Below the pieces are notes generated by a model that was not told the DNA's origin, did not search any database, and saw only the letters and a list, made by a program, of their open reading frames with translations. The position numbers and the translations under genes were made by a program. 11,441 nucleotides of DNA from a virus (taxonomy: Duplodnaviria > Heunggongvirae > Uroviricota > Caudoviricetes), in the IMG/VR virus record IMGVR_UViG_3300023487_000022, one strand, 5' to 3'. Shown in pieces: positions 1 to 11,441 of this stretch. Position 1 is the first letter of the stretch. Every line of letters starts with the position of its first letter.

Positions 1-40
1 TGATGTCACGCTGAAAATGCCGGCCTTTGAATGGGTTCAT
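1..40 (-). CDS. tnpA: IS26 transposase, first 13 codons only (cut by window edge)
   Basis: ATG at 40..38 on the minus strand, reading MNPFKGRHFQRDI, 38 bp inside the terminal IR. Confidence 0.85.
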   Translation of the reverse strand, partial: MNPFKGRHFQRDI

Positions 41-103
41 GTGCAGCTCCATCAGTAAAAGGGGATGATAAGTTTATCACCACCGACTATTTGCAACAGT
101 GCC
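1..103 (-). mobile_element. IS26 (IS6 family) terminal 103 bp; the element continues beyond the window start
   Basis: Reverse complement of 90-103 is GGCACTGTTGCAAA, the IS26 terminal inverted repeat. Reverse complement of 1-40 is ATGAACCCATTCAAAGGCCGGCATTTTCAGCGTGACATCA, the start of the IS26 transposase gene. Recognised from memory of the IS26 sequence, not from a search. Confidence 0.88.
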
Positions 104-152
104 CTTTTCTCTCCTGGCCTTCAGCAAGACCCAGCACCAATGAAGTATTCAT
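104..152 (-). pseudogene. 5' fragment of a gene truncated by the IS26 insertion
   Basis: Minus-strand ATG at 152..150 preceded by GGAG 5 nt upstream. It reads MNTSLVLGLAEGQERK and runs straight into the IS26 IR at 103. It sits directly downstream of a copy of the Y-type upstream module, as the intact ORF at 313-642 does. Confidence 0.4.
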
Positions 153-159
153 CACCACT

Positions 160-226
160 CCGTAAACAAATTGTTTTCTCAATGGCGTAAATAATACCAG
201 TGTAAAAACGGCTACAAAGCATATTG
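160..226 (-). promoter_or_regulatory. Y-type conserved upstream module, copy 1, with AAACAAATTGTTTT dyad at 164-177
   Basis: About 80% identical by eye over about 67 bp to 651-717; both copies lie immediately upstream (minus strand) of a start codon. Confidence 0.55.
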
Positions 227-312
227 CTCAGGCACATGAATTATCTAAAGGTGGTTCTTCCCTGCGGCTACAGAGAAGTTAAGCCAGCAGGCGGTGCTGG
301 CTTTGGTTGGGC

Positions 313-642
313 TTACGCGAATAACTCAAGGAATTCCTGCACGTCCCAATGCTGGACAAGGTGAAGATAGAGCTTAGAAATCACGTCATTCTCGCTATCG
401 CATGTGAAGTAGTACTTCTGGCTGCGGTTGTATGTGTCCACACAAAATTCGCTCATATCCATAAAGTCAGCATCTTCACCCATGTCGCAAATAATCAAAG
501 CAGGAGCATCATCACGAGTCATCAGCTCAAGCACCCAGCGCGAATTGATCAGCGTGGAAGACCAACCTTCTAACTCATAAAACTGGTCAAACTCTTTTTG
601 AGTCATTTTCTTGATTTGGTTGATGTCGATATTTGCAAACAT
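313..642 (-). CDS. Hypothetical small acidic protein (109 aa)
   Basis: ORF-track frame 313..708; start chosen at the internal ATG at 642 because AAGGA lies 7 nt upstream. Product MFANIDINQIKK...; by hand count about 21 D/E versus 8 K/R. No family recognised. Confidence 0.65.
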   Translation of the reverse strand: MFANIDINQIKKMTQKEFDQFYELEGWSSTLINSRWVLELMTRDDAPALIICDMGEDADFMDMSEFCVDTYNRSQKYYFTCDSENDVISKLYLHLVQHWDVQEFLELFA

Positions 643-650
643 AAAGCAAT

Positions 651-717
651 CCTTAAACATGTTGTTTTCTGAATTTCGTAAACAATACCAGTAAGAAAAC
701 GGCCACAAAGTATATCG
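651..717 (-). promoter_or_regulatory. Y-type conserved upstream module, copy 2, with AAACATGTTGTTTT dyad at 655-668
   Basis: Direct repeat of 160-226; abuts the RBS and ATG of the 313-642 CDS. Confidence 0.55.
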
Positions 718-781
718 TTACGGTGCTGCGCTGCCCCGGAGGTTAATAGCGACAAAAGCCACCGTGCTGGTGGTCTCACTC

Positions 782-1000
782 TTAATCTTCGTCGTCCGGG
801 AACTCGCTGTGTACCGCGTCCACCAGCTCCCGCTTTTCATCTTCACTAAGCAGGTGCCAGATATCCTTCCCTTTGGGCGATTCCCCTTCTACCGGGACGA
901 ACGACCACAACTTGCGGTACAACTCCGGCCCCACTGCATCCAGACACTCAGCCAGGGAATCCACACCCCACACCTCAACCGTCACAGGCATCTTAATCAT
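782..1000 (-). CDS. Hypothetical small acidic protein (72 aa)
   Basis: ATG at 1000 with GAGGA 7 nt upstream. Product MIKMPVTVEVWGVDSLAECLD...EFPDDED; about 18 D/E versus 7 K/R by hand count. Confidence 0.7.
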   Translation of the reverse strand: MIKMPVTVEVWGVDSLAECLDAVGPELYRKLWSFVPVEGESPKGKDIWHLLSEDEKRELVDAVHSEFPDDED

Positions 1001-1032
1001 CTCTTCATCCTCACTTCGTTTATATAACGTCT

Positions 1033-1088
1033 AAACATGTTGTTTACTTATTGGTGTTATTGTCGCAATAAGACAAAGGAGAAAAAGG
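1033..1088 (-). promoter_or_regulatory. X-type conserved upstream module, copy 1 (AAACATGTTGTTTA dyad 1033-1046; TTATTG-TCG-CAATAA dyad 1057-1071)
   Basis: About 80% identical by eye to 3801-3856; both lie immediately upstream of minus-strand start codons (1000 and 3788). Confidence 0.55.
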
Positions 1089-1387
1089 ATTTTATGTCGT
1101 GAAAGCCAGGCTGGGCAGTGAATATCCGGGAACGACACGGGAACCAGTATTTACGATATTCTGCTCTACGCGCGCCGCAGGGCTGGTGGGCAGAATTTTC
1201 TTCTCCCCGAAAACCTACTGAAATCGCTTGAGACCCGAGGATGGTCTGGCAGAATGGAGTTCAGCAGCTGCACGAGAGGGAACGACACTCCCTCGCGATT
1301 TTCAGGCGAGCGAAGAGCAAGGCGCACTCCCGAAGATTTCCCGCACTGCTCCCGCAGTCGTCCCTCGCTCTGTACCGGGATGTACCC

Positions 1388-1513
1388 GTTTCCCGACCGG
1401 CAGCCAGCCTTTTCCCGGTTCGTATAGCGGGATTCCCACCGTTTCCCTGAAAAACCTCCAGCCTTTTCCCTGCGGCGACGTTCCCGTTCCTGAAAAGGGA
1501 CATGGCTTTTCCC
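1388..1513. repeat. Array of about 7 degenerate direct repeats with TTTCCC core, roughly 21 bp period
   Basis: TTCCC cores at about 1390, 1412, 1433, 1443, 1466, 1481 and 1509. Three copies share AGCCTTTTCCC-G (1407-1418, 1460-1471, 1504-1516). Confidence 0.5.
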
Positions 1514-2588
1514 TGGATGGCTCGAAGGCTGACCGAAGGGGTGGATAGGGACGTTACGGGGGATGAAAACTATGGCTTGAATTTATACGAAGAAAGTGGC
1601 GATACCCCTCCTTCCCTTCCCACTTATACCTCCCACGAATTTTCTCTCTTATGTGGGCATAAACCTTCTCTCTGATAACGCTCAATACGGCGACTATTCC
1701 TGTGGGTGAAATGGGTGGTTTGTTCTTTCTACCGGCATATGTGGTTTCGTTCTTCTTGAGGTGGTTCTTCTCTGTGTTTTCGTCAGGGTTGTTCTCGTTG
1801 TTTTGGTGATTGTTCTTCTCTGTGTATGGAGTAATGGCAGGTGGGCGATTCCTTTCGTTATTGTATTTGAGTTGTTTGTCTTGAGAGCGTGAAAGGCTTT
1901 TGTGGTTATTTGTGTATTGAGTAATGGCGTTTCCCCGCGAATGTTCTGTTTCGTGTCTTTGGGGATTGAGGGAGTCCTTGCGGTAACAGGCTTCGTTAGA
2001 GTTTCAGTGGTTCTGGTGTTTATTCGCTGTTTGGGGAATGGCGTGTAGTGGGTATCGCATGTATGAATGTTTCGAGTTGCCTGTGAAAGTTAGGTTGGTT
2101 GTCCGGTAGCCTGGGAAGAAGAGGTGGGTCTTTTCAGTAGCCTGCCATAAAGAGGTTGGTTGTTTTTGGGAATGTGGGTAATGGCGTCTCTGGGTTTCCT
2201 GTGGGTGTGGTTAGCTTGTTTTCTTGTGTCTGAAAACAACTTGTTTAGATGTCCAATATAACGCAACGGGAGCGCTTCTGAGCGTGTCTGTTTTTGGGTG
2301 GTATCACGAGTCGTTTTTGACGTTTTGGTCGCAGGGAGATGGATTCTGGTACGCTGGATTTGGGTATAAGAGATGGCGTGCGAAAACATCAACTTTTTAG
2401 ACCAAATCAGGGGAAAGCGTTGACTTTACGTTGATGTGTTATTTATTTGTTTTCTTATGGGTGTAATTGGCTTAAATGCCTTGTCACGCCTGGGATTGAG
2501 TGGGGTAGGGTGGTGGGGAAAGTGGCGATCAACGGACTCTTATAGAAATCCTCAATTTGTGACCGCCAATATCAACGAGCTGCAGCCG

Positions 2589-3158
2589 TTAGTTGTTCAG
2601 ATAGGCATCCGGAACGCGCACATAAAAGTTTCTTTCGCCGGTCAGTTCCAGAGTAACGTTTATGTCGTTGCCGTTATCCAGCGTAGCCGTCGCTTTATAG
2701 AACTTGTCCGTCACCTTGTCCTGAATTGTCACCTTCATACATTTCGGCGCTGTGGTTCCGTTATTCTCTTTCAGAATGGTCGTTACGAGAGGACAAGCCG
2801 CTTCTTCAAGAGCAACCTCTTCCTGGTGTGGGATACCGATGAAGATGTTACCAGCAAGCAACGCGACGATTACGATAAAAGGAAGTCGACTGCCTTTTGT
2901 AACGGTGGCACGTTTCCAGAGATAGACCGGAAGGAGAAATACTCCCCACAGGATGGCCGGTGGTTCATACCCTGCATCAGACAATGCCATTCTGTCAGCC
3001 ACCAGAAAGCCGAGTCCAGCGACTCCACCTATCACTATTGCATAATTCAAATACTCATCTGGCGGTGCTCCAAAGAAGAGAGGCAGTAAAGCTAGAAGCC
3101 ACGCATAAGCATTATTCAGAGGTTTTGTTTGTTGGTTCTGGGTTTCCATCACATCCAT
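2589..3158 (-). CDS. Hypothetical membrane protein (189 aa), hydrophobic N-terminal half and soluble C-terminal domain
   Basis: ORF track; hydrophobic stretches (WLLALLPLFF, AIVIGGVAGLGFLV, ILWGVFLLPVYLW, FIVIVALLAGNIFIGI). Start uncertain between ATG 3158 and ATG 3149; RBS weak. The overlapping plus-strand ORF 2436-3089 has a non-protein-like composition. Confidence 0.65.
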   Translation of the reverse strand: MDVMETQNQQTKPLNNAYAWLLALLPLFFGAPPDEYLNYAIVIGGVAGLGFLVADRMALSDAGYEPPAILWGVFLLPVYLWKRATVTKGSRLPFIVIVALLAGNIFIGIPHQEEVALEEAACPLVTTILKENNGTTAPKCMKVTIQDKVTDKFYKATATLDNGNDINVTLELTGERNFYVRVPDAYLNN

Positions 3159-3234
3159 TCCATCAGATTAAAAAGCGGTACTATGTTACCAATTTTCTTC
3201 GCTTATATGACATGATTACTCAACGAGTGGGCGA

Positions 3235-3555
3235 TCACCATTCCCATGCAGGTAGCCCATCCACCAGCTCGGCGTCGCAATCGAAGTGAACCACGTCAAA
3301 GCCGTCATCCAGTATGGTCTGTATGTTGGAGATCGCCTCTTGGGAAATGCCGTACTCACGCAGTTCTTCCTTCCAGTCATTCCCTCGCATTCCAGCACGA
3401 ACAATCCAGCCGTACTGTGTACCGTGTACCCAATTCAACCCGCGATCAGTAAGTGGGTCGAAGCAGGCAATGGGTAGCCGTTCTGAATCCGCTGCCGTTA
3501 CGTGGGCGGTGCTGATCACCGCCGTCTTATACGATTCGGTGATTTTCAGCATCAT
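3235..3555 (-). CDS. Hypothetical acidic protein (106 aa), translationally coupled to the upstream gene
   Basis: ATG at 3555 overlaps the TGA of the 3552-3788 CDS (ATGA overlap); AAGGAG upstream. About 18 D/E versus 8 K/R by hand count. Confidence 0.72.
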   Translation of the reverse strand: MMLKITESYKTAVISTAHVTAADSERLPIACFDPLTDRGLNWVHGTQYGWIVRAGMRGNDWKEELREYGISQEAISNIQTILDDGFDVVHFDCDAELVDGLPAWEW

Positions 3556-3788
3556 GCCTTCTCCTTTGGAAACAGAATGTTGGCCGTGTCAGAAATGACA
3601 TCCCAATTCACGCCGACGCTGGTGTCATGGCACTCTTTGATTTTTCGCAAAACCTGAACGCACTGTTCGTCAGTCAGGTCTGGTCGCACTTCACCTACAT
3701 CTTCCTTGTGCCACATCACCATCAGCAGCGGCTCGTCTTCTGGGTAGTTCTCCAGCTTTTCGATGATGTCTTTTGCGGTTCCGAACAT
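3552..3788 (-). CDS. Hypothetical small acidic protein (78 aa)
   Basis: ATG at 3788 with AAGGAG 6 nt upstream; the track start at 3806 is a TTG that contains this SD. Product MFGTAKDIIEKLENYPEDEPLL... Confidence 0.72.
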   Translation of the reverse strand: MFGTAKDIIEKLENYPEDEPLLMVMWHKEDVGEVRPDLTDEQCVQVLRKIKECHDTSVGVNWDVISDTANILFPKEKA

Positions 3789-3800
3789 GATCAACTCCTT

Positions 3801-3856
3801 AAACAATTTATTTTCTTATTTGTGTTATTATCTCAAATAACAAAAGGTAGAAAACA
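3801..3856 (-). promoter_or_regulatory. X-type conserved upstream module, copy 2 (GTTATT-N6-AATAAC dyad 3824-3841; AAACA/TGTTT-like dyads at 3801-3814 and 3851-3865)
   Basis: Homologous to 1033-1088; lies between the 3874-4140 and 3552-3788 genes. Confidence 0.55.
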
Positions 3857-3873
3857 AAATGTTTAAGGGATGA

Positions 3874-4140
3874 CTAGGTGAGTTTGAAGTCGTCTATGTC
3901 ATCAACAAACTCCATATACCTGGCTTCGACACTCGACAATCTGATCAGATACGCAAGCCCGTAACTTAGTGAAGTGGGTTGCTCCAGCACAAATTCGAAC
4001 CCATCCTCATGCGTTTTACCAAGCCAGAACCCCCCACCGTATTCTTTTTCACGTTGGAAGAAAACGAACTGTCCGGGTATTAGGTGCTTGAGTGCTTCGC
4101 CCCTATAGACGATCACATATTTAGAATTCTTGCTGCCCAT
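3874..4140 (-). CDS. Hypothetical protein (88 aa)
   Basis: ORF-track frame 3874..4197; start chosen at ATG 4140 because GAGG lies 6 nt upstream, while the ATG at 4197 has no SD. Confidence 0.6.
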   Translation of the reverse strand: MGSKNSKYVIVYRGEALKHLIPGQFVFFQREKEYGGGFWLGKTHEDGFEFVLEQPTSLSYGLAYLIRLSSVEARYMEFVDDIDDFKLT

Positions 4141-4228
4141 TGCTCGCCTCGCAATACTGTACATATAAACAGTATTATTTATTACGGTACTGGTCAACTT
4201 TACGGGTTAATTGAATAACAAGATGGTG

Positions 4229-4243
4229 AAAACAATTTGTTTT
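4229..4243. promoter_or_regulatory. Perfect 15 bp palindrome AAAACAATTTGTTTT in a divergent promoter region; candidate operator
   Basis: Seven-base arms around a central T, between the minus-strand start at 4140 and the plus-strand start at 4328; the strongest copy of the recurring AAACA-N-TGTTT dyad. Confidence 0.5.
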
Positions 4244-4327
4244 GGCACTTGAGATTTTGCAAATCGCACCTACATGGAAAACGGCAATTTTTGAAACCTG
4301 ATTTGACCCATGTGAAAGGAGGAAACG

Positions 4328-4531
4328 ATGAAGACCTATGATCGCAACCGTAACGCTATCACTACCGGCAGCCGAGTGATGGTGGCAACGAATGGTGCAA
4401 CGGGAGTCATCAAGGAAATCTGCGGAGAAGGCAAATCAGAAGAACAATTACGCCGCTCTGACTGCGTGTCTATCGAAGGTGTGGAAGGTCTATTCTGCCC
4501 AATGGATTTGGTTCGCCTGGGGTTCCATTAA
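4328..4531 (+). CDS. Hypothetical small protein (67 aa); candidate regulator
   Basis: ATG at 4328 with AGGAGG SD 5 nt upstream. It is the only plus-strand gene in the island and is transcribed divergently from the palindrome at 4229-4243. Confidence 0.72.
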   Translation: MKTYDRNRNAITTGSRVMVATNGATGVIKEICGEGKSEEQLRRSDCVSIEGVEGLFCPMDLVRLGFH

Positions 4532-4558
4532 TTTCACCATCTATAAAACAAATTGTTT

Positions 4559-4579
4559 AAGGCCACAACTAGTGGCCTT
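4559..4579. terminator. GC-rich inverted repeat AAGGCCAC-AACTA-GTGGCCTT between convergent genes; possible bidirectional terminator
   Basis: 8 bp stem, 5 nt loop. The T-rich tract on the minus-strand side is offset by about 6 nt, so terminator function is uncertain. Confidence 0.4.
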
Positions 4580-4586
4580 ATCTGGC

Positions 4587-5285
4587 TTACGGAACAGCGG
4601 TAATCAGATCGCAAATGCCTGTTTTAGTTAAATCACTATTCAGCTTCTGAAAATTGGCATTCAGCATTGCGGTATGTATTCGATTCTCAAGTTCAAAGAA
4701 GAGACCGATCTTGCCCTCTTTGGCTGCCACCTTCTTCCAAATATTCACCTGGTCATCTGCGATACGACTTGCGCAGGTGAACAAGAACGAACTCCCTCTG
4801 GGAAGGGATGTCGTGCTGTAGTATTCACCGTCAACTTCAATATACTTAGCTCGGAATGACTCCAGAGTTAGCTTTTTACCGCTCTCAGCCTGCTTTGTGT
4901 CTGCCTTGCTTGTCTTTTCCTGAACTTCAGGCTGTTTCTGCACAGGCTTTGGTGTCTCATTGACCACCGCAGTGCTGGCCGAACCATCCAAACTCTTGAG
5001 GCCATTAATTTGGATTAGATAAGCCAACTCCAGAGCCTTATCACCAGTGAGTTTTCCACGCATACTTACCCATTGACGCTGAACCGTCTTTAAGGCGTCT
5101 GCGTCCCCCGGGTTTGCTTTGAGTGCGTTGGAATAGGTAGAGCTAAGTTGTTCGTCTAATTTTGACAGGCGTTCGTTATCGCAGATTTTGTGTTCGATTT
5201 CTGCCGAAGCCTTTTGGCAGTCAAAGCTGGCTGCAAATACAGCCGGCGATGCCACCAACAATGATGCCAGTAGGATATTTTTCAT
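4587..5285 (-). CDS. Secreted protein with DUF1311 (LprI-like) N-terminal domain (232 aa)
   Basis: ATG at 5285 with GGAG upstream. Signal peptide MKNILLASLLVASPAVFA with an AXA-type cleavage site, followed by the Cys/Leu pattern FDCQKASAEIEHKICDNERLSKLDEQLSSTYSNALKA...QRQWVSMRG, which matches DUF1311 from memory. C-terminal domain unassigned. Confidence 0.78.
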   Translation of the reverse strand: MKNILLASLLVASPAVFAASFDCQKASAEIEHKICDNERLSKLDEQLSSTYSNALKANPGDADALKTVQRQWVSMRGKLTGDKALELAYLIQINGLKSLDGSASTAVVNETPKPVQKQPEVQEKTSKADTKQAESGKKLTLESFRAKYIEVDGEYYSTTSLPRGSSFLFTCASRIADDQVNIWKKVAAKEGKIGLFFELENRIHTAMLNANFQKLNSDLTKTGICDLITAVP

Positions 5286-5323
5286 ATTCACTCCATAAAT
5301 ATAAAAGCGCCTGACTATAGCAC

Positions 5324-5539
5324 TTAACCAATTGCTTCTCTCATCTGATTGTGAAGCTCTTTCAGCCCATCACGTACCGCGTTCATGATACGTTCCAGGG
5401 ATTGGTATCTGGGGTTTGGCACTGTTGGCCAACCGGCATACCACGGATCGTCACCAAACAGACTCAGCAGTTCGTTACCGACACCGAAACAGCAGCAACT
5501 TTCTTTTACGTCATCAGCGTTTTCTGCCTCGTCCCACAT
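5324..5539 (-). CDS. Hypothetical protein (71 aa), possibly the C-terminal remnant of a longer disrupted gene
   Basis: ORF track; in the same frame as 5774-6505 but separated from it by stops. The frame is open upstream of the ATG as far as 5626. Confidence 0.4.
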   Translation of the reverse strand: MWDEAENADDVKESCCCFGVGNELLSLFGDDPWYAGWPTVPNPRYQSLERIMNAVRDGLKELHNQMREAIG

Positions 5540-5773
5540 ATTGCGGGCCTGCTCTGCGTCGATTTCTCTCTCTCCCTGCGCAACTTTATGATTTCGGATT
5601 TGACGAAAAGCAGGTTTGCGTCGTTGTCATCGTCGACCGTACTGAAGTGGCACACTGAATTTGGCCGTCTGTAATGGGCAGATCCGGCAACTGTTTAAAA
5701 ACATCCATCTGCTCATGGATACGCAGAAACCACCTTGCCAGCTCCATCTGCTCACCGCGGGTGAGGAGATTAT

Positions 5774-6505
5774 TCAGCGGGGACTTAACAAAAGCGGAGA
5801 CTCGCTCGACAAGCCGGCCAGTGAACCAACATCCCCCCAATTCTGGTGTGTCAGCGCCCCGATACTTACCACTCCAGGCAGCACTTCTTTGTGGTTGTGG
5901 TAGTGCCCGGACAACAATAAACGGAAGCCGATATCTTTCAGTTCCTGTGCGTCGATGCCGACATCGGGCATGGTGGGGATCGCTTTGTTGATTGAGGTAT
6001 GTACAACAACATCATGGTTGTCACCATCCAGCCCGGAACGCAGCGTTTTGAGATCGCTGATAAGTTCTGCGTAGTTATTACGCCAGCTAATCAGATGGAC
6101 GGTTACGTCGCCCATTTTGATGGAATGAGGACGTTTGCCGCAGACGATTTCCACACCGATTGAGCGCAGAGAGGCTGCTGCATTGGCGCTGTATACGGAA
6201 TCGTTGGTTTCGAGGTCGTGGTTGCCAGCCAGCATTACCACCTTGAGACCCAACTCTTTGATGATCCACTCGTAAGTTTCGGTCACGAAATGCAGAACGG
6301 AAGGTGATATAGCACCGCGAACATGGAAGGTATCACCAGCTACCAGCATGTTCTTACAGCCAGCAGCTTTCATCGCTTTGGCCGCCTCCTTCGTAGCGTC
6401 CAGTTGGATCTCCAGCCGAGAGTTAAGCCCGTCAGCGTTTGTTGTCGCAAAAGCATCCCAACGATGATAATGGGGATCTGATATTACCCCGTATGGCAAT
6501 GTCAT
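5774..6505 (-). CDS. Calcineurin-like metallophosphoesterase (243 aa)
   Basis: ATG at 6505 with AAGGA upstream. Ordered motifs ISDPHYH, GDTFHVRG, GNHD and GHYHNH match the metallophosphatase signature (D-x-H, GD-x-x-D/H-R-G, GNH[DE], GH-x-H). Confidence 0.75.
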   Translation of the reverse strand: MTLPYGVISDPHYHRWDAFATTNADGLNSRLEIQLDATKEAAKAMKAAGCKNMLVAGDTFHVRGAISPSVLHFVTETYEWIIKELGLKVVMLAGNHDLETNDSVYSANAAASLRSIGVEIVCGKRPHSIKMGDVTVHLISWRNNYAELISDLKTLRSGLDGDNHDVVVHTSINKAIPTMPDVGIDAQELKDIGFRLLLSGHYHNHKEVLPGVVSIGALTHQNWGDVGSLAGLSSESPLLLSPR

Positions 6506-6848
6506 GTGTCTTTTCCTTTGTGGTTATTTTGATACAAATTCTAAGCGTGCATAAGAGGCGTACAACCCAGACAACACGGCACACAAAAGAATATAAAGGC
6601 ACATGATAATAACAAAAAAATAAGTAAGTAAATACCTATCAGATAGGGCAGCAACGATTTCTAAACGTCACAAGCAATTTTATGAGAGCAGTCATTTACT
6701 GATGACAAGAAATGAAAAAGGAGAACGGACGGTGAAGTTGTGAGATGACATTTACGGCGTTTGCGTGCGTCGTCTTCAAACGCATCCGTCGGCCACAGTT
6801 TCTGCTCTTGAATAAAATTCACTCATGCATTAATCCCTAAAGCTCTCA

Positions 6849-6875
6849 GTGTCTTTCTAAGACACCATATTTTAT
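6849..6875 (+). terminator. Hairpin GTGTCTT-TCT-AAGACAC followed by CATATTTTAT; candidate plus-strand rho-independent terminator
   Basis: Perfect 7 bp stem, 3 nt loop, T-rich tail on the plus strand only; lies just after a 31-codon plus-strand ORF (6745-6840). Confidence 0.45.
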
Positions 6876-6901
6876 GCCCGGTAAAAAGCATGAGTTTGCC
6901 T

Positions 6902-7546
6902 TTAAAACGTCTCTGAGGGCTTCTGACGCGCTCTGCTAATGTCTATTACCCCAGCTTTTGGACGAGGGTCTACAAGATTCAACTCTTCAGCACTGTGATA
7001 CTCCGTGTCGAACTCCCGATCGACATGGCGAATGTAAATGGCTGTCAGAAGGCTGTTATCATTCAGAAAGTGTCCGTAAGATTTGCGAATTACTTCGCCA
7101 ACCTTCTCAATCTTCTCTCCGCCCATGCAGAGATGGTTAAATCGGCTGTGTTTCCGCAGCATTTCATCCACCGGGCCTGAGTAGACCTTATCAACTCTCC
7201 CGAACCGGATGATATTTCCGGTATCAGCTTCAACCAGACAAACGAGTTTGCCAGGTTCGACACGATCTCGCCAAGTGACACCAGAGCGCAGTGTGTTGAA
7301 GTAGGGAGCATCCAATCCGATGATCGGTTTACGAAATGCTAGTAGTGGCACGTAACGTATGCAGCTGTTTAGGTGGAAATGCGCACCGGCGTCGTGGAGT
7401 TTAAGCCGGGTTTCGTTAATCGGGCATTTCGAAGCAATGCCGCAAAGGTCGCAGAGCAACTTCTGTTTGTTCAGACTAGTGTTTGATTCAATGGTGTAGG
7501 AGCCATCTTCAAGACGGCGAACCCAGCGCGTGCGTTTAAGATCCAT
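6902..7546 (-). CDS. Hypothetical protein (214 aa) with a CDLCGIASKC Cys cluster
   Basis: ORF track, ATG at 7546, weak RBS. No family recognised. Confidence 0.6.
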   Translation of the reverse strand: MDLKRTRWVRRLEDGSYTIESNTSLNKQKLLCDLCGIASKCPINETRLKLHDAGAHFHLNSCIRYVPLLAFRKPIIGLDAPYFNTLRSGVTWRDRVEPGKLVCLVEADTGNIIRFGRVDKVYSGPVDEMLRKHSRFNHLCMGGEKIEKVGEVIRKSYGHFLNDNSLLTAIYIRHVDREFDTEYHSAEELNLVDPRPKAGVIDISRARQKPSETF

Positions 7547-7645
7547 AATTCTTGTTCAAATAATTTTGTCCGGGGCAACGATAACGGATAAGGCGCACCG
7601 GAGTTTGCAAATGCCTGTTTACTTATTCACTTTATTCACAGGCCC

Positions 7646-7703
7646 GATCCAATATTTAGATCCCCAGAGAGATCCTACAGAAGATCAAAAGAGATCCCCG
7701 ATC
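7646..7703. promoter_or_regulatory. GATC (Dam site) cluster, 6 sites in 58 bp; origin-like element
   Basis: GATC at 7646, 7659, 7671, 7683, 7693 and 7700, next to an AT-rich segment and just upstream of iteron cluster 1; this resembles the arrangement at P1-type origins. Confidence 0.5.
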
Positions 7704-7744
7704 GTCTCCAGCGCTTGCGGTTACTGGCTTGAGAAGGGGTTACT

Positions 7745-7846
7745 ATCCACTATAGGGAGCAAAATAACCACTGTAGAGAGCATAATAACCGCTATGAAGA
7801 GCAAAACAACCTCTCTGGAGAGTAGTCGGTATCCACTGTAGTGAGT
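7745..7846 (+). repeat. Iteron cluster 1: 5 direct repeats, about 21 bp spacing, core A(A/T)CCACT(A/G)TAG(A/T)GAG
   Basis: Copies at 7745-7760, 7766-7781, 7787-7802, 7808-7823 (degenerate) and 7831-7846. Confidence 0.8.
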
Positions 7847-8127
7847 AGGAGACAATGTTTTAACTGGATAACTCCGAGCCTGTTTTTCTGCGGCAGATGG
7901 CTGATATTCTTGGAAATATTGTAAATTTTGCGTTGCGGCGTGTTTATTTCGATCACACATTATCCCCAGAAGGGGAGTGATGCCTGATTTTGTAATTATC
8001 TGATTTTTATACACAGGCCCGATCCAGTAATTCAGATCCCTGTTAGAACCAAAGAGAACCACAAAGACCCAAAGAGATCCCCGGCCCTTGCAAACCGTTG
8101 TGCCACATGGCTTTAGAGGTTATCGAT

Positions 8128-8249
8128 ATCCACTATAGTGAGAAGAACAACCACTATAGAGAGTAAATCAACCACTATGGAGAGTAGAAAAACCGCTGTA
8201 GGCGGTAGGATAACCACTGTGATGGGTGCTACTATCCACTGTAATCAGT
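8128..8249 (+). repeat. Iteron cluster 2: 6 direct repeats at 21-22 bp spacing, immediately upstream of repA
   Basis: Copies at 8128-8143, 8149-8164, 8170-8185, 8191-8206, 8212-8227 and 8234-8249. Confidence 0.82.
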
Positions 8250-8288
8250 AAAGGCACCCAAGCCGTCGAATAAAAAGAGACATTTGGA

Positions 8289-9344
8289 ATGAGCGTAAAC
8301 GACAATAAAAACATTGCGATAAGCGAAGCATTTTCCGAAACAGACAAAAAGACCGGCGAAGTTGTTACGTTAGTTCCTAACACCAACAACACAGTTCAGC
8401 CTGTTGCTCTGATGCGTCTTGGTCTCTTCGTTCCGACGCTGAAATCGACATCCAGGGGTAGAAAGGGGCAAATGGTCTCTATGGACGCCTCCGCTGAACT
8501 CAAACAGCTGTCTCTGGCCAAAGCCGAAGGGTACGAGGATATAAGGATTGCTGGTCTTCGTCTTGATATGGATAACGATTTCAAAACATGGGTGGGCATC
8601 ATCCACGCGTTCGCCAAGCACAAGGTTGTTGGTGACACCGTCACGTTGCCGTTCGTCGAGTTCGTCAGACTTTGTGGCATACCAACAGCCAGATCGTCCG
8701 CGAAGTTACGTAAGCGCCTGGACAGCTCTCTAAGTCGTATCGCCACAAACACCATCTCATTCCGCAGCAAAGGCTCTGAAGAGTATTACGTTACGCACCT
8801 TGTGCAGACGGCAAAGTACAGTACCAAGAATGACACGGTCGAACTGAAGGCCGATCCTAAGATTTTCGAACTTTACCAGTTCGACAAAAAGGTGCTTTTG
8901 CAACTTCGGGCCATCAACGAACTCTCCAGAAAGGAATCCGCGCAGGCGCTCTACACCTTCATTGAAAGTTTGCCACCAGACCCGGCGCCAATCTCATTGG
9001 CTCGCTTACGCGCCAGACTTAACTTAACCAGCCGCACCATTACCCAGAATGCGACAGTCAGGAAGGCGATGGAGCAGCTGCGAGAGATCGGCTATCTCGA
9101 TTACACTGAAGTGAAACGCGGCAGCTCGGTCTACTTCGTCATCCACTATAGACGGCCGAAGTTACGTTCGGCACTGCCGCCATCTATGGCTACGCCTGAA
9201 GAGCCAGAAGATATCTTGCCAGGTGATGATCCGGAGGACATTATCGATGTTGCCCCTGAAGAAAAAGACGGGGAAATGGTCATGTTGAGCAAGGAAGAAC
9301 TGGCGATTCTCGAAGAGCTGCGCAAGGCAAAGGCTCGCAAATAG
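8289..9344 (+). CDS. repA: Iteron-binding replication initiator RepA, RepFIB/P1 RepA family (351 aa)
   Basis: Product contains [57 protein letters not shown] and [10 protein letters not shown], which I recognise as conserved in P1 RepA and RepFIB RepA. Flanked on both sides by iterons. Confidence 0.9.
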
Positions 9345-9347
9345 CCC

Positions 9348-9947
9348 AACCACTGTAGAGAGTAAAAAGGCTCACTATCTACTGTAGTGAGCCTTTTTGT
9401 TTATCGGAAATGCAATATCCACTGTAGTGAGTAAAAGAAACCGAAGAATAACCACTGTAGGCAGTGCGCACAAATCGCGAAGTAAATGTTAGTGGTTGCA
9501 AACATAGATAAAACAAGGGCTGAGAGGTTAGCGGTCACTGGGTATCTCTGTTAAGTCTACTCTCTACAGCGGTTATCGTCGCTCTCCTCATTGTTGACTA
9601 TCCACTGTGAAGAGCAGAATTGGCTGACTTGACCTCTATCCACTGTAGTGAGTGGATATCCGTTTAAAACAGCGAAGATTTACTCTCCATAGTGGATATC
9701 CGCTGGAGGGGGCATTCCATCACTCTCTATAGTGGTTGTTTGTAGTCAGTGAACGCCTGTTTACTCACTACAGTGTATAGCGACCCCGATAATCACCAAT
9801 TTACTCACTACAGTGGATAGTTGATATCGTGGCAGAGGGTTTGCTCACTACAGTGGTTGGGGTGCATACCTGAAGGGTGTTCTACTCGCTACAGTGGTTA
9901 TGAGCCGGATTCACACGCGGTGAGCTGGCTACTCACCGCAGTGGATA
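9348..9947. repeat. Downstream iteron array, about 14 copies in both orientations (incA-like)
   Basis: Direct copies at 9348-9363, 9378-9393, 9417-9432, 9450-9465, 9598-9615 and 9638-9653; inverted copies at 9559-9576, 9682-9701, 9721-9738, 9763-9780, 9803-9820, 9843-9860, 9884-9901 and 9930-9947. Confidence 0.8.
9369..9402 (+). terminator. repA rho-independent terminator: GGCTCACTA-TCTACTG-TAGTGAGCC then TTTTTGTTT
   Basis: 9 bp stem beginning 25 nt after the repA stop, followed by a T-run; the stem is built from iteron-like sequence. Confidence 0.6.
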
Positions 9948-9953
9948 GTGTTA

Positions 9954-10166
9954 TCAGTGGATTTTCTTCAGCAGACCCCAGAGTGTCCCGGCCTTCGTTG
10001 CGAGCTTACCTGTTTCCGGATCGTACATGTGCCATTCACGTCGCTGGTGGACAATATACCCATCTTCACGTTCCAGTCGTTCCAGTACGCCGGACTGCTT
10101 GAACCCTTTGGCACGCCAGTAGCCGCTTGTTTTTTCGATTTCCAGACCTGTCAGTGTAACCGCCAT
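9954..10166 (-). CDS. Hypothetical small protein (70 aa), translationally coupled
   Basis: ATG at 10166..10164 overlaps the TGA of the upstream gene (TGATG); the track start at 10169 is a TTG. Product MAVTLTGLEIEKTSGYWRAKGF... Confidence 0.62.
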   Translation of the reverse strand: MAVTLTGLEIEKTSGYWRAKGFKQSGVLERLEREDGYIVHQRREWHMYDPETGKLATKAGTLWGLLKKIH

Positions 10167-10501
10167 CAACTAATCTCCTTGCAGTCATCGAAAAGGTAGC
10201 TGTCGTTCTTCGCGTGAACGCCGTATACATCACCCGATTTGTTGTAAACGAATCTATCTTTACCTACGCCAGATAGTTCGCCGTTACGTTTAGTGAGAAA
10301 CGGGGAAGACAGGACGCGATCATCGCGTACCACATAAAACTGTTCGCCACGGTCCACAACCATCGCGCCGTAATTAGCTTTAACGACGTTGCGGATCAGG
10401 CCGTTTTTCGCTTCGACCACAAACATTTCGCACTCATAGACATGTGTGTCCGCAAAGACGGGGAGAGTGAGCAGCGCCAGTACCAGGGCTGTTTTCTTCA
10501 T
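10166..10501 (-). CDS. Hypothetical exported protein with Sec signal peptide (111 aa)
   Basis: MKKTALVLALLTLPVFA then DTHVYEC, consistent with an AXA cleavage site. ATG at 10501 overlaps the stop of the upstream small ORF (ATGA). Confidence 0.65.
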   Translation of the reverse strand: MKKTALVLALLTLPVFADTHVYECEMFVVEAKNGLIRNVVKANYGAMVVDRGEQFYVVRDDRVLSSPFLTKRNGELSGVGKDRFVYNKSGDVYGVHAKNDSYLFDDCKEIS

Positions 10502-10677
10502 GCCACGACTCCTTTGAAAACGCCTAATGCTGAGTCGAAGACCAGTACTACGGCCAGCGCATTGATCATCACATCATTAACAGGCGCCAGCGCTTTACGG
10601 ATTGCCCCTGTGAAGATGCAGTCGAGCACAAAGGCTATCGAGATAATAAGTAACGTGATATCTAATAAAATTTTCAT
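10498..10677 (-). CDS. Candidate small hydrophobic peptide (59 aa), not in the supplied ORF track
   Basis: ATG at 10677, reading MKILLDITLLIISIAFVLDCIFTGAIRKALAPVNDVMINALAVVLVFDSALGVFKGVVA. Its stop overlaps the start of the 111 aa gene. RBS is weak, and a plus-strand ORF (10442-10693) overlaps it. Confidence 0.4.
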   Translation of the reverse strand: MKILLDITLLIISIAFVLDCIFTGAIRKALAPVNDVMINALAVVLVFDSALGVFKGVVA

Positions 10678-10716
10678 GATAGGTAAATGCTAACTTATAT
10701 ATTTTTGCTGTAAATA

Positions 10717-10992
10717 TCACTCAAAAGTGCTGATACCCAAAATGCGCTCAAGATGGGCCGCGTCTTCATCGCTTACCAGCATTGTGTCGTCGACGTACCA
10801 GCAGCTACCGTTGTGCCAACAAACACCGTCATCATCGATATAAATAGAATCCGCATCCATTCCTGTGTATTCAACTAGATTGCGTTCAATTGCCGCTTGA
10901 ATTTCTTCATCGTTCAGCCCGTCGCACTTGATCATGAACAACGGGTAAACGTCATAGTCGGTACTAGATGAAATGCGAACCAAAGTCTTCAT
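10717..10992 (-). CDS. Hypothetical small, very acidic protein (91 aa)
   Basis: ORF-track frame 10717..11055; start chosen at ATG 10992 with AAGGAG 7 nt upstream. About 20 D/E versus 5 K/R by hand count. Confidence 0.62.
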   Translation of the reverse strand: MKTLVRISSSTDYDVYPLFMIKCDGLNDEEIQAAIERNLVEYTGMDADSIYIDDDGVCWHNGSCWYVDDTMLVSDEDAAHLERILGISTFE

Positions 10993-11172
10993 GTGCTTTC
11001 TCCTTGTTGGTAAGTACTTATCTATCTTAATGCGCGCTATAAGGCGCACAATCATTGTGTTCAGGCTGGTGGAAAGAACTTCTCCAGCGTGTGGTTGATA
11101 GCCTTATCAATGTGCATCAGGTGCCAGACGACCATATCTTTGCTTCCAATGCCGCGAGTGTAGATGAAGTGG

Positions 11173-11389
11173 TCAACAAAAACTGGCCACCGAGTTAGAT
11201 TTTTTCCAGTATCGATTTTCCGATTCATTTGGGGGTAATCCACCGTTATATTCGTGCGGTCTTAGTGCGCTGTAATATCCAACGATATAGTCCGTTATGG
11301 CGTGAGCTGCCTCGCTGAAGCTTACGTAACCCACCACCGGCATCCATTCGTTCTTCAGACTCCTGAAGAAGCGTTCCATTGGGCTGTTG
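11173..11389 (-). pseudogene. C-terminal fragment of an IS3-family transposase (OrfB tail), truncated upstream
   Basis: Reads ...SVNSPMERFFRSLKNEW...YYSALRPHEYNGGLPPNESE, resembling the conserved IS3-family DDE-domain tail (DNAxxESFFxxLKxE ... RxHxxLGxxxPxEFE). An in-frame stop at 11390-11392 sits just upstream of the conserved motif, and no other frame continues the homology. Confidence 0.55.
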
Positions 11390-11441
11390 ACGCTCCTATG
11401 TCAAGAGCGGGCGATTGGCATATGTGAGATCTGATAAAATC

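What the first reader, a model, noticed from the sequence alone, without database searches (positions are those of the whole stretch)
104..226. IS26 has removed a gene from the cassette series, leaving its upstream module and first 16 codons
The Y-type module at 160-226 is a near copy of 651-717, which drives the 313-642 gene. It is followed by GGAG, then an ATG at 152, and MNTSLVLGLAEGQERK runs directly into the IS26 inverted repeat at 103. The island therefore originally continued leftwards and one member was truncated by the insertion.
Basis: seen in the sequence. Interest (0 to 1): 0.45.

Follow-up and report, generated by a model that had tools for sequence, protein, structure and literature searches.

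The report
IS26-truncated gene in a phage-plasmid
An IS26 insertion sequence, at the edge of a large block of imported DNA in a phage-derived E. coli plasmid, has cut off a small phage gene of unknown function after 16 codons; this is an ordinary, well-understood kind of plasmid rearrangement.

Summary
Window 1-103 is the left end of IS26 (IR at 90-103; tnp26 starts at 40 and reads leftwards). From 104 the sequence is the backbone of an SSU5/pHCM2-like phage-plasmid. In 32 near-identical uninterrupted plasmids the ATG at 152 starts an annotated 103-aa gene (WP_001711135.1, phrog_5125, function unknown). The window keeps only its promoter-like module, its SD and codons 1-16.

The reading needs widening. 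In the two public plasmids with this exact junction (pB379_2, pXJW9B263-1), this IS26 is the right edge of a roughly 50-63 kb IS26-bounded mosaic of Klebsiella/Citrobacter-type cargo. Between the outer IS26 copies, 4.8-4.9 kb of backbone is missing: seven whole genes plus 87 codons of this one. There is no 8-bp target duplication.

A third relative, the Shigella STLE3 plasmid, has the same IS26 copy with the same inner flank. Its outer flank lies 1,471 bp further right, so this IS26 copy has demonstrably made adjacent deletions into the gene array.

The upstream module is real. It is near-invariant across diverged relatives and carries a palindrome (AAACA-N3-TGTTT) that recurs before many backbone genes.

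Verdict: a correct but routine IS26 deletion junction. It is already a known kind of event and of low interest.

The parts
1..103 (-). Left (IRL) end of IS26. tnp26 starts at 40 and reads leftwards out of the window.
   Evidence: Identical to the end of an 820-bp IS26 in pB379_2. N-terminus MNPFKGRHFQRDI. Annotated as IS26 family transposase in relatives.
90..103 (.). 14-bp IS26 terminal inverted repeat (TTTGCAACAGTGCC, the reverse complement of GGCACTGTTGCAAA).
   Evidence: Read directly. Both IRs shown.
103..104 (.). IS26/backbone junction. The outer 8-bp flank is CTTTTCTC (104-111).
   Evidence: In the uninterrupted relative L009 the sequence runs ...GGTTGGTTTTT|CTTTTCTC.... Only 2 records in PLSDB and 2 of 5,426 E. 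coli genomes carry this junction.
105..152 (-). First 16 codons (MNTSLVLGLAEGQERK) of a 103-aa phrog_5125 gene.
   Evidence: The full gene is annotated as WP_001711135.1 in relatives. phrog_5125 E=1.1e-55.
87..152 (-). Residual fusion ORF that runs into IS26: MNTSLVLGLAEGQERK+GHCCK*, 21 aa.
158..161 (-). Shine-Dalgarno GGAG, 5 nt before the ATG.
   Evidence: Read directly. Conserved in relatives.
164..176 (.). Palindromic core AAACAAATTGTTT, an operator-like site.
   Evidence: 8 sites in the window against about 1 expected. 19 sites in pB379_2 against about 4 in shuffles.
191..199 (-). Candidate extended -10 element, TGGTATTAT on the sense strand.
   Evidence: My reading of the sequence. Conserved in 30 of 33 aligned rows. 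Not reported by the consensus scan.
156..226 (-).
   Evidence: (D9).
283..301 (-). Hairpin GCCAGCA-loop-TGCTGGC downstream of the 313-642 gene. Terminator-like, with a weak T tract.
   Evidence: Read directly. The stem is kept and the loop differs in the diverged lineage. Not listed by the terminator scan.
313..642 (-). Intact neighbouring gene, 109 aa, phrog_7645, function unknown.
   Evidence: Annotated as WP_032187826.1.
647..715 (-). Upstream module, copy 2, in front of the 313-642 gene.
   Evidence: (D9).

Best explanation
Window 104 onward is the accessory small-gene array next to the RepA/iteron replicon of an SSU5/pHCM2-like phage-plasmid. An IS26 copy, which forms the right boundary of a large multi-IS26 mosaic of imported cargo, abuts codon 17 of a 103-aa phage gene of unknown function (phrog_5125). 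The gene's own regulatory module is left intact: a candidate extended -10 promoter, a palindromic operator-like site and the SD. So are 16 codons, which now read into IS26 as a 21-aa nonsense fusion.

The rest of the gene and about 4.7 kb further left have been lost. That stretch held seven genes, including an FljA-like regulator.

The most likely route has two steps.

1. IS26-mediated cointegration brought in the cargo between directly oriented IS26 copies.
2. Intramolecular replicative transposition of the boundary IS26 copies in cis then deleted adjacent backbone and erased the 8-bp target duplication.

Shown: the junction, the lost DNA, the absence of a duplication, and the further deletion by the same IS26 copy in a sister plasmid. 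Inferred: the order of events, and that the module is a promoter plus operator.
For: - IS26 identity and orientation: and 7/8/50.
- Uninterrupted allele: 34 plasmids match 104-312 at 99% or better, and 32 of them lack the IS26 junction. The annotated 103-aa CDS starts at the window-152 ATG.
- The gene is real. It gives a full-length phrog_5125 match. It has 42 invariant columns among 14 homologues of 51-73% identity. There are 37 IMG/VR loci.
- The remnant has no fold. In the AlphaFold model residues 1-19 form no secondary-structure element; pLDDT is below 50 for residues 1-11 and averages 59 for 11-20. The conserved core begins at residue 26.
- Structure in pB379_2: IS26 at 80899-81718 and at 143057-143876, both in + orientation, bracket 62,978 bp of bcs, dha, psiAB, umuDC, parM, malT and IS elements.
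- Backbone missing relative to pRHB41-C15_2: 4,772 bp in pB379_2 and 4,930 bp in pXJW9B263-1. It is absent from all of pB379_2.
- Flanks: GATAAAAG|IS26...IS26|CTTTTCTC, so no duplication. The IS26 copy's own inner flank is GGCGGCCG, inside a truncated dhaR.
- STLE3 plasmid: same left boundary and same inner flank, but the outer flank is at window 1575. That is a clean further 1,471-bp adjacent deletion.
- Mechanism in the literature: IS6-family intramolecular replicative transposition in cis deletes adjacent DNA and loses the flanking repeats. IS26 makes 8-bp duplications (PMC7986276).
- IS26/IS6 elements next to cargo in phage-plasmids, including the SSU5 group, are already described (PMC9600943).
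Against: - The window holds only 103 bp of IS26. What lies beyond it in the window's own replicon is inferred from two 99.95-100% identical public plasmids.
- The window itself is a third close relative. It diverges from pB379_2 after position 11388.
- It cannot be decided whether the 104 junction is the original insertion site, with the deletion made later from the left-hand IS26, or is itself a deletion endpoint.
- Homologous recombination between two independent IS26 insertions would give the same end state.
Confidence: 0.9

Rival explanations
1. Simple IS26 insertion. The gene is merely interrupted, its 3' part lies just beyond the IS, and it is flanked by an 8-bp target duplication.
For: IS26 normally makes 8-bp duplications on insertion (PMC7986276). 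The window does not show the other IS end.
Against: In both public plasmids with this exact junction, the other side of the IS26 is dha-operon cargo or IS1, with flanks GGCGGCCG and TCATCCCT rather than CTTTTCTC. The missing 4,772 bp has no match anywhere in pB379_2.
Confidence: 0.03
2. The loss arose by RecA-dependent recombination between two independently inserted, directly oriented IS26 copies, or by resolution of a cointegrate at a different IS26. Transposase-driven adjacent deletion was not involved.
For: The outer IS26 copies are in direct orientation and 99.9% identical. Such recombination also leaves no duplication. Both routes are discussed for IS26 (PMC7986276).
Against: Three sister plasmids show three different outer endpoints: L009 1359 or 1517 on the left, window 104 or 1575 on the right. 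In each case the IS and its inner flank stay the same. One-sided nibbling like this is the signature of intramolecular transposition. Recombination would need a pre-existing IS26 at every endpoint.
Confidence: 0.1
3. The 152 ATG is not a real gene start, and the similarity of 156-224 to 647-715 is a chance or purely structural repeat. In that case nothing functional was truncated.
For: The protein has no Pfam family and no significant structural match. The consensus scan finds no promoter.
Against: There is a full-length phrog_5125 match. The ORF length and 42 invariant residues are conserved across 51-73% identical homologues. The fold is confidently predicted (pLDDT 77.6). The module is more conserved than its flanks.
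Confidence: 0.02

Closest known systems
IS26 (IS6 family) pseudo-compound transposon or cointegrate structures with IS26-mediated adjacent deletion
   Same: 14-bp IR, 820-bp element, and directly oriented IS26 copies bracketing mosaic cargo. The 8-bp duplication is lost. Sister plasmids show one-sided deletions that start exactly at the IS end (PMC7986276).
   Different: Nothing essential. The cargo is metabolic and maintenance genes (dha, bcs, umuDC, parM) rather than antibiotic resistance genes. The target is a phage-plasmid backbone.
IS6/IS26-associated cargo regions in phage-plasmids (Pfeifer et al. 2022, PMC9600943)
   Same: A backbone of the SSU5/pHCM2 supergroup with IS26-flanked acquired DNA concentrated in a plastic locus.
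   Different: Here the element has also lost about 23 kb of virion genes, so it is probably no longer a phage. I did not check whether the locus is the one reported in that paper.
Dispersed C1 operators of phage-plasmid P1 (own knowledge, analogy only)
   Same: A short conserved site recurs immediately upstream of many unrelated genes around the genome. One of these is a DnaB-like helicase gene, as with ban in P1.
   Different: The sequence is a symmetric AAACA-N3-TGTTT palindrome, unlike the asymmetric C1 operator. No binding protein is identified and no experiment exists. This is a resemblance in layout, not membership.

Membership tests
IS26 (IS6 family insertion sequence) | 14-bp terminal inverted repeat GGCACTGTTGCAAA | tested here: met
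   Window 90-103 is its reverse complement. Both IRs are seen in the full copy from pB379_2.
IS26 (IS6 family insertion sequence) | About 820 bp with a single transposase gene read from the left end | tested here: met
   The window holds only 103 bp, with the tnp26 start at 40 (MNPFKGRHFQRDI). The identical copy in pB379_2 is 820 bp and is annotated as IS26 family transposase WP_001067848.1.
IS26 (IS6 family insertion sequence) | 8-bp direct target duplication flanking the element | tested here: not met
   Flanks are GGCGGCCG / CTTTTCTC in pB379_2 and TCATCCCT / CTTTTCTC in pXJW9B263-1. The outer flanks of the whole region are GATAAAAG / CTTTTCTC. This is expected after intramolecular transposition (PMC7986276), so it does not argue against IS26 identity.
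SSU5/pHCM2-like phage-plasmid backbone | Plasmid replicon together with phage virion and packaging genes on one replicon | tested here: met
   RepA at 8289-9344 lies between iteron arrays. Uninterrupted relatives carry terminase, portal, capsid, tape measure and tail genes. There is 83.8% DNA identity to pHCM2 NC_003385.1 over the flank probe. The window's closest relatives have lost the capsid-to-tail block.
phrog_5125 (phage protein family, function unknown) | Full-length match to the family HMM | tested here: met
   The uninterrupted allele gives E=1.1e-55 over 1-103 of 103. The window retains residues 1-16 only, so the window copy is a remnant and not a functional member.
   No attC model search was run. 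Each unit here has its own conserved upstream module and SD. No integrase is annotated nearby. The word applies only loosely.
Sigma-70 extended -10 promoter | TGn immediately upstream of a TATAAT-like hexamer at a suitable distance from the start codon | tested here: inconclusive
   TGGTATTAT (sense strand, 199-191) and TGGTATTGT (690-682) are present and conserved. The -35 is poor (TTGTAG with a 15-nt spacer), and the consensus scan reports no promoter there. No transcript data.

The most novel reading that the evidence does not exclude
The AAACA-N3-TGTTT palindrome, in its best copies the 15-bp AAAACAA-T-TTGTTTT, marks an undescribed genome-wide regulon of SSU5-like phage-plasmids, comparable in layout to P1's dispersed C1 operators. 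The IS26 deletion removed seven genes, including an FljA-like regulator (PF03614). It may therefore have changed the control of the surviving module-driven genes in a phage-plasmid that has become a pure plasmid.
Probability: 0.12. Interest if true: 0.4.

Novelty: already known. Interest (0 to 1): 0.12.

Why it matters
For annotation, the 16-codon stub should be marked as an IS26-truncated pseudogene of the phrog_5125 family. The IS26 should be marked as the boundary of a large acquired region, not as a solo insertion.

Biologically this is one more example of IS26 loading cargo onto a phage-plasmid and eroding its backbone. Here it accompanies loss of the virion genes, which illustrates phage-plasmid to plasmid conversion. 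It opens no new question.

The only thread with some originality is the conserved promoter/palindrome module shared by many backbone genes. Its regulator is unknown.

Tried and rejected
- Function of the truncated gene: Pfam gave nothing. PHROGs gave only 'unknown function'. The homologue search found 23 clusters, all hypothetical and all on SSU5-like elements. The AlphaFold model is usable (pLDDT 77.6), but Foldseek against the PDB found nothing below E=0.06 or above TM 0.45.
- RNA-element reading of the module: no Rfam hit in the window. The two copies do not share a stable fold (z = -2.5 versus +1.1), so I prefer a DNA-level operator.
- Canonical sigma-70 promoter in the module: not found by the scan.
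- Target-site duplication: looked for at this IS26 copy and at the outer boundaries in three plasmids. None found.
- Inversion signature: the left flank GATAAAAG resembles the reverse complement of CTTTTCTC at 7 of 8 positions. It is native backbone sequence in the uninterrupted relative, so this is coincidence.
- Literature on an SSU5/pHCM2 repressor or operator: nothing relevant found.

Full report
**What is in the sequence**

Window 90-103 reads TTTGCAACAGTGCC, the reverse complement of the 14-bp IS26 terminal repeat. On the minus strand, positions 40..2 translate to MNPFKGRHFQRDI. This lies under the gene annotated as 'IS6-like element IS26 family transposase' in the two public plasmids that contain this stretch. 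Window 1-103 is identical to the end of a complete 820-bp IS26 copy in pB379_2. The IS end facing the finding is therefore IRL, and tnp26 reads away from it.

From base 104 the sequence changes character. On the minus strand there is GGAG (161-158), then 5 nt, then ATG (152). The 16 codons MNTSLVLGLAEGQERK follow (152..105). Base 104 is the first base of codon 17. As it now stands, the frame runs into IS26 and stops at 87, giving MNTSLVLGLAEGQERKGHCCK*.

The repeat finder confirms that 156-224 is an 81% copy of 647-715 (69 nt, offset 491, D9). The second copy sits directly in front of the intact 313-642 gene. These are the only two copies of this module type in the whole 152-kb relative.

**What the backbone is**

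Window 104-312 is matched at 99% identity or better by 34 E. coli, E. fergusonii and Shigella plasmids of about 106-115 kb, and at 80-90% by 172 more. These plasmids are typed IncFIB and non-mobilizable.

The uninterrupted ones carry terminase, portal, major capsid, tape measure and tail genes alongside plasmid functions. A flank probe also matches S. Typhi pHCM2 at 83.8%. The window is therefore the accessory small-gene region next to the replicon of an SSU5/pHCM2-like phage-plasmid. RepA is at 8289-9344, between iteron arrays.

**The uninterrupted allele**

In S56 plasmid B, pGS04EC-1 and pRHB41-C15_2, the ATG that corresponds to window 152 starts an annotated 312-nt CDS, WP_001711135.1, of 103 aa. 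The evidence that this is a real gene is as follows:

- It is a full-length member of phrog_5125, function unknown (E=1.1e-55). It has no Pfam family.
- 37 IMG/VR contigs encode it at 57-100% identity over residues 1-103.
- A search of 5.8 billion proteins finds only 23 clusters, all 'hypothetical'. Most of the longest contigs that encode them are about 100-117 kb.
- An alignment of 14 homologues has 42 invariant columns, and the conserved core starts at T26.
- The AlphaFold model (pLDDT 77.6) has no secondary-structure element in residues 1-19 (pLDDT below 50 for 1-11), four beta strands and a C-terminal helix. Foldseek against the PDB gives no meaningful match.

The 16 codons left in the window encode only the variable, low-confidence N-terminal tail. 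The gene is functionally gone.

**How much was lost, and how**

Only two records in PLSDB carry the exact IS26/backbone junction, and the same two among 5,426 complete E. coli genomes. They are pB379_2 (NZ_CP090457.1) and pXJW9B263-1 (NZ_CP067400.1). The window is 99.95% identical to pB379_2 over 1-11388 and then diverges, so it comes from a third close relative.

In pB379_2 this IS26 lies at 143057-143876. It is the right-hand boundary of a 62,978-bp block that starts with another directly oriented IS26 at 80899-81718. The block holds three further IS26 copies, IS1, IS3 and IS5 elements, and cargo typical of Klebsiella/Citrobacter plasmids: bcs cellulose genes, the dha glycerol/1,3-propanediol genes, psiAB, umuDC, parM and malT. 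Similar bcs and glycerol clusters on Citrobacter plasmids are described in PMC12955436.

Relative to pRHB41-C15_2, the backbone between the two outer IS26 copies lacks 4,772 bp in pB379_2 and 4,930 bp in pXJW9B263-1. That segment has no match anywhere else in pB379_2. It held seven whole genes in addition to codons 17-103 of the truncated gene:

- Three further leftward small genes: phrog_2473, phrog_7971 and phrog_1641.
- Four rightward genes, one of which is an FljA-like 'repressor of phase-1 flagellin' (PF03614, E=6.7e-95).

**No target duplication**

The outer flanks are GATAAAAG|IS26...IS26|CTTTTCTC. The window IS26's own inner flank is GGCGGCCG in pB379_2, where RefSeq annotates a dhaR pseudogene missing its N-terminus. 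In pXJW9B263-1 it is TCATCCCT. This is not a simple insertion.

**Direct comparative evidence for IS26-adjacent deletion**

The Shigella flexneri STLE3 plasmid (NZ_CP058829.1) has the same left boundary as pB379_2. It also has the same inner flank at the right-boundary IS26 (…GGGCGGCCG|IS26). Its outer flank, however, is window position 1575 (IS26|GCTTGAAT…). Relative to the window, a further 1,471 bp has gone, starting exactly at the IS end. The lost stretch includes the 16-codon stub, both modules, and the 313-642 and 782-1000 genes.

| Plasmid | Left endpoint (L009 coordinates) | Right endpoint (window coordinates) |
|---|---|---|
| pXJW9B263-1 | 1359 | 104 |
| pB379_2 | 1517 | 104 |
| STLE3 plasmid | 1517 | 1575 |

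pB379_2 and STLE3 have also lost 5.8 kb of dha DNA on the inner side of the same IS, relative to pXJW9B263-1.

One-sided losses that begin precisely at an unchanged IS end are what intramolecular replicative transposition in cis produces. That process also removes the flanking repeats (PMC7986276). I therefore take transposase-mediated adjacent deletion as the mechanism. Recombination between pre-existing IS26 copies is a weaker alternative.

It cannot be decided whether position 104 was the original entry point, with later deletion from the left-hand IS26, or is itself a deletion endpoint.

**The upstream module**

Across 32 distinct relatives, the about 70 nt from ATATGCTTTGTAGCCGTTTT through TGGTATTATTTACGCCATTGAGAAAACAAnTTGTTTACGGAGT to the ATG are almost invariant. 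The spacer upstream and the first codons diverge over the same set. One relative (L019) has a different upstream half (GATAATAACACC…) joined to the same palindrome and SD.

The consensus scan finds no sigma-70 promoter here. I read TGGTATTAT (copy 2: TGGTATTGT) as an extended -10 element with a poor -35. This is inference.

The palindromic core AAACA-N3-TGTTT occurs 8 times in the window against about 1 expected. It occurs 19 times in pB379_2 against about 4 in shuffles, nearly all in backbone DNA (18 of 19; one one-mismatch site, at 86559, lies in the imported block). Most sites lie 10-25 nt upstream of start codons, including those of a DnaB-like helicase, an AAA ATPase and a gene next to the terminase.

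The two module copies do not share a stable RNA fold, and Rfam has nothing. A DNA operator for an unidentified dimeric regulator is the best guess. The layout recalls P1's dispersed C1 operators; that comparison is from my own knowledge and is an analogy only. A conserved-stem hairpin at 283-301 separates the upstream gene from the module, so each gene looks like its own transcription unit.

**Comparison with what is known, and verdict**

IS26 boundaries that truncate backbone genes, lack target duplications and nibble into adjacent DNA are textbook behaviour (PMC7986276). IS6/IS26 elements next to acquired genes in phage-plasmids, including the SSU5 group, have been reported (PMC9600943).

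It needs two extensions: about 4.8 kb was lost, not one gene, and the event was a deletion rather than a plain insertion. It is an ordinary event of a known kind. Interest is low. The only mildly original thread is the uncharacterised promoter/palindrome regulon of the backbone.

Noticed in passing
window 164-176, 655-667, 1033-1045, 2234-2246, 3801-3813, 3852-3864, 4230-4242, 4546-4558; also pB379_2 30355, 68498, 71427, 77271: A palindrome AAACA-N3-TGTTT (best copies AAAACAA-T-TTGTTTT) recurs in intergenic DNA. It lies mostly 10-25 nt upstream of start codons of unrelated backbone genes, including a DnaB-like helicase, an AAA ATPase and a terminase-adjacent gene. There are 8 in the window against about 1 expected. 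It looks like a dispersed operator of an unknown regulator.
   Followed up: partly
window 4155-4174: A perfect LexA (SOS) box, TACTGTACATATAAACAGTA, lies 14 nt upstream of the start of the 3874-4140 gene (- strand). 0.04 are expected by chance. This small gene is probably SOS-induced.
   Followed up: partly
window 3797-3868: A 33-nt inverted repeat (82% complementary, 6-nt spacer) is made of two palindrome-bearing modules back to back. It sits between the stop of 3874-4140 and the start of the DUF1380 gene (3552-3788).
   Followed up: no
window about 1100-2580: A roughly 1.5-kb stretch has no annotated gene in any relative. It is full of short direct repeats (families D11, D12, D15, D16: 30-48-nt periodic units). 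The STLE3 deletion endpoint (1575) falls inside it.
   Followed up: no
window 7742-8254 and 9345-9948, flanking RepA 8289-9344: Arrays of 21-nt-spaced iterons (core ATCCACTGTAGTGAGTA) lie on both sides of repA, in opposite orientation downstream. This is a typical iteron replicon.
   Followed up: no
L009 1781-2308 (deleted region; absent from the window): The DNA removed by the IS26 event included a strong FljA-like 'repressor of phase-1 flagellin' gene (PF03614, E=6.7e-95; phrog_1444 transcriptional repressor).
   Followed up: partly
pB379_2 (L007 about 28830-29620), pXJW9B263-1 (L010), STLE3 (L049) versus S56 plasmid B (L006 7734-30834): The three IS26-bearing relatives lack about 23 kb of virion genes (capsid through tail fibre) that intact relatives carry, while keeping portal and terminase. 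They look like phage-plasmids that have decayed into plain plasmids loaded with cargo.
   Followed up: partly
L050 49375 = window 1575 (S. flexneri STLE3 plasmid NZ_CP058829.1): The same IS26 copy has an outer flank 1,471 bp further right in this sister plasmid. That removes the stub, both Y-type modules and two intact genes.
   Followed up: yes
window 11388-11441: The window stops matching pB379_2 after 11388, so the source is a third, unsampled close relative. pXJW9B263-1 differs by an IS3-family insertion at about window 6029.
   Followed up: partly
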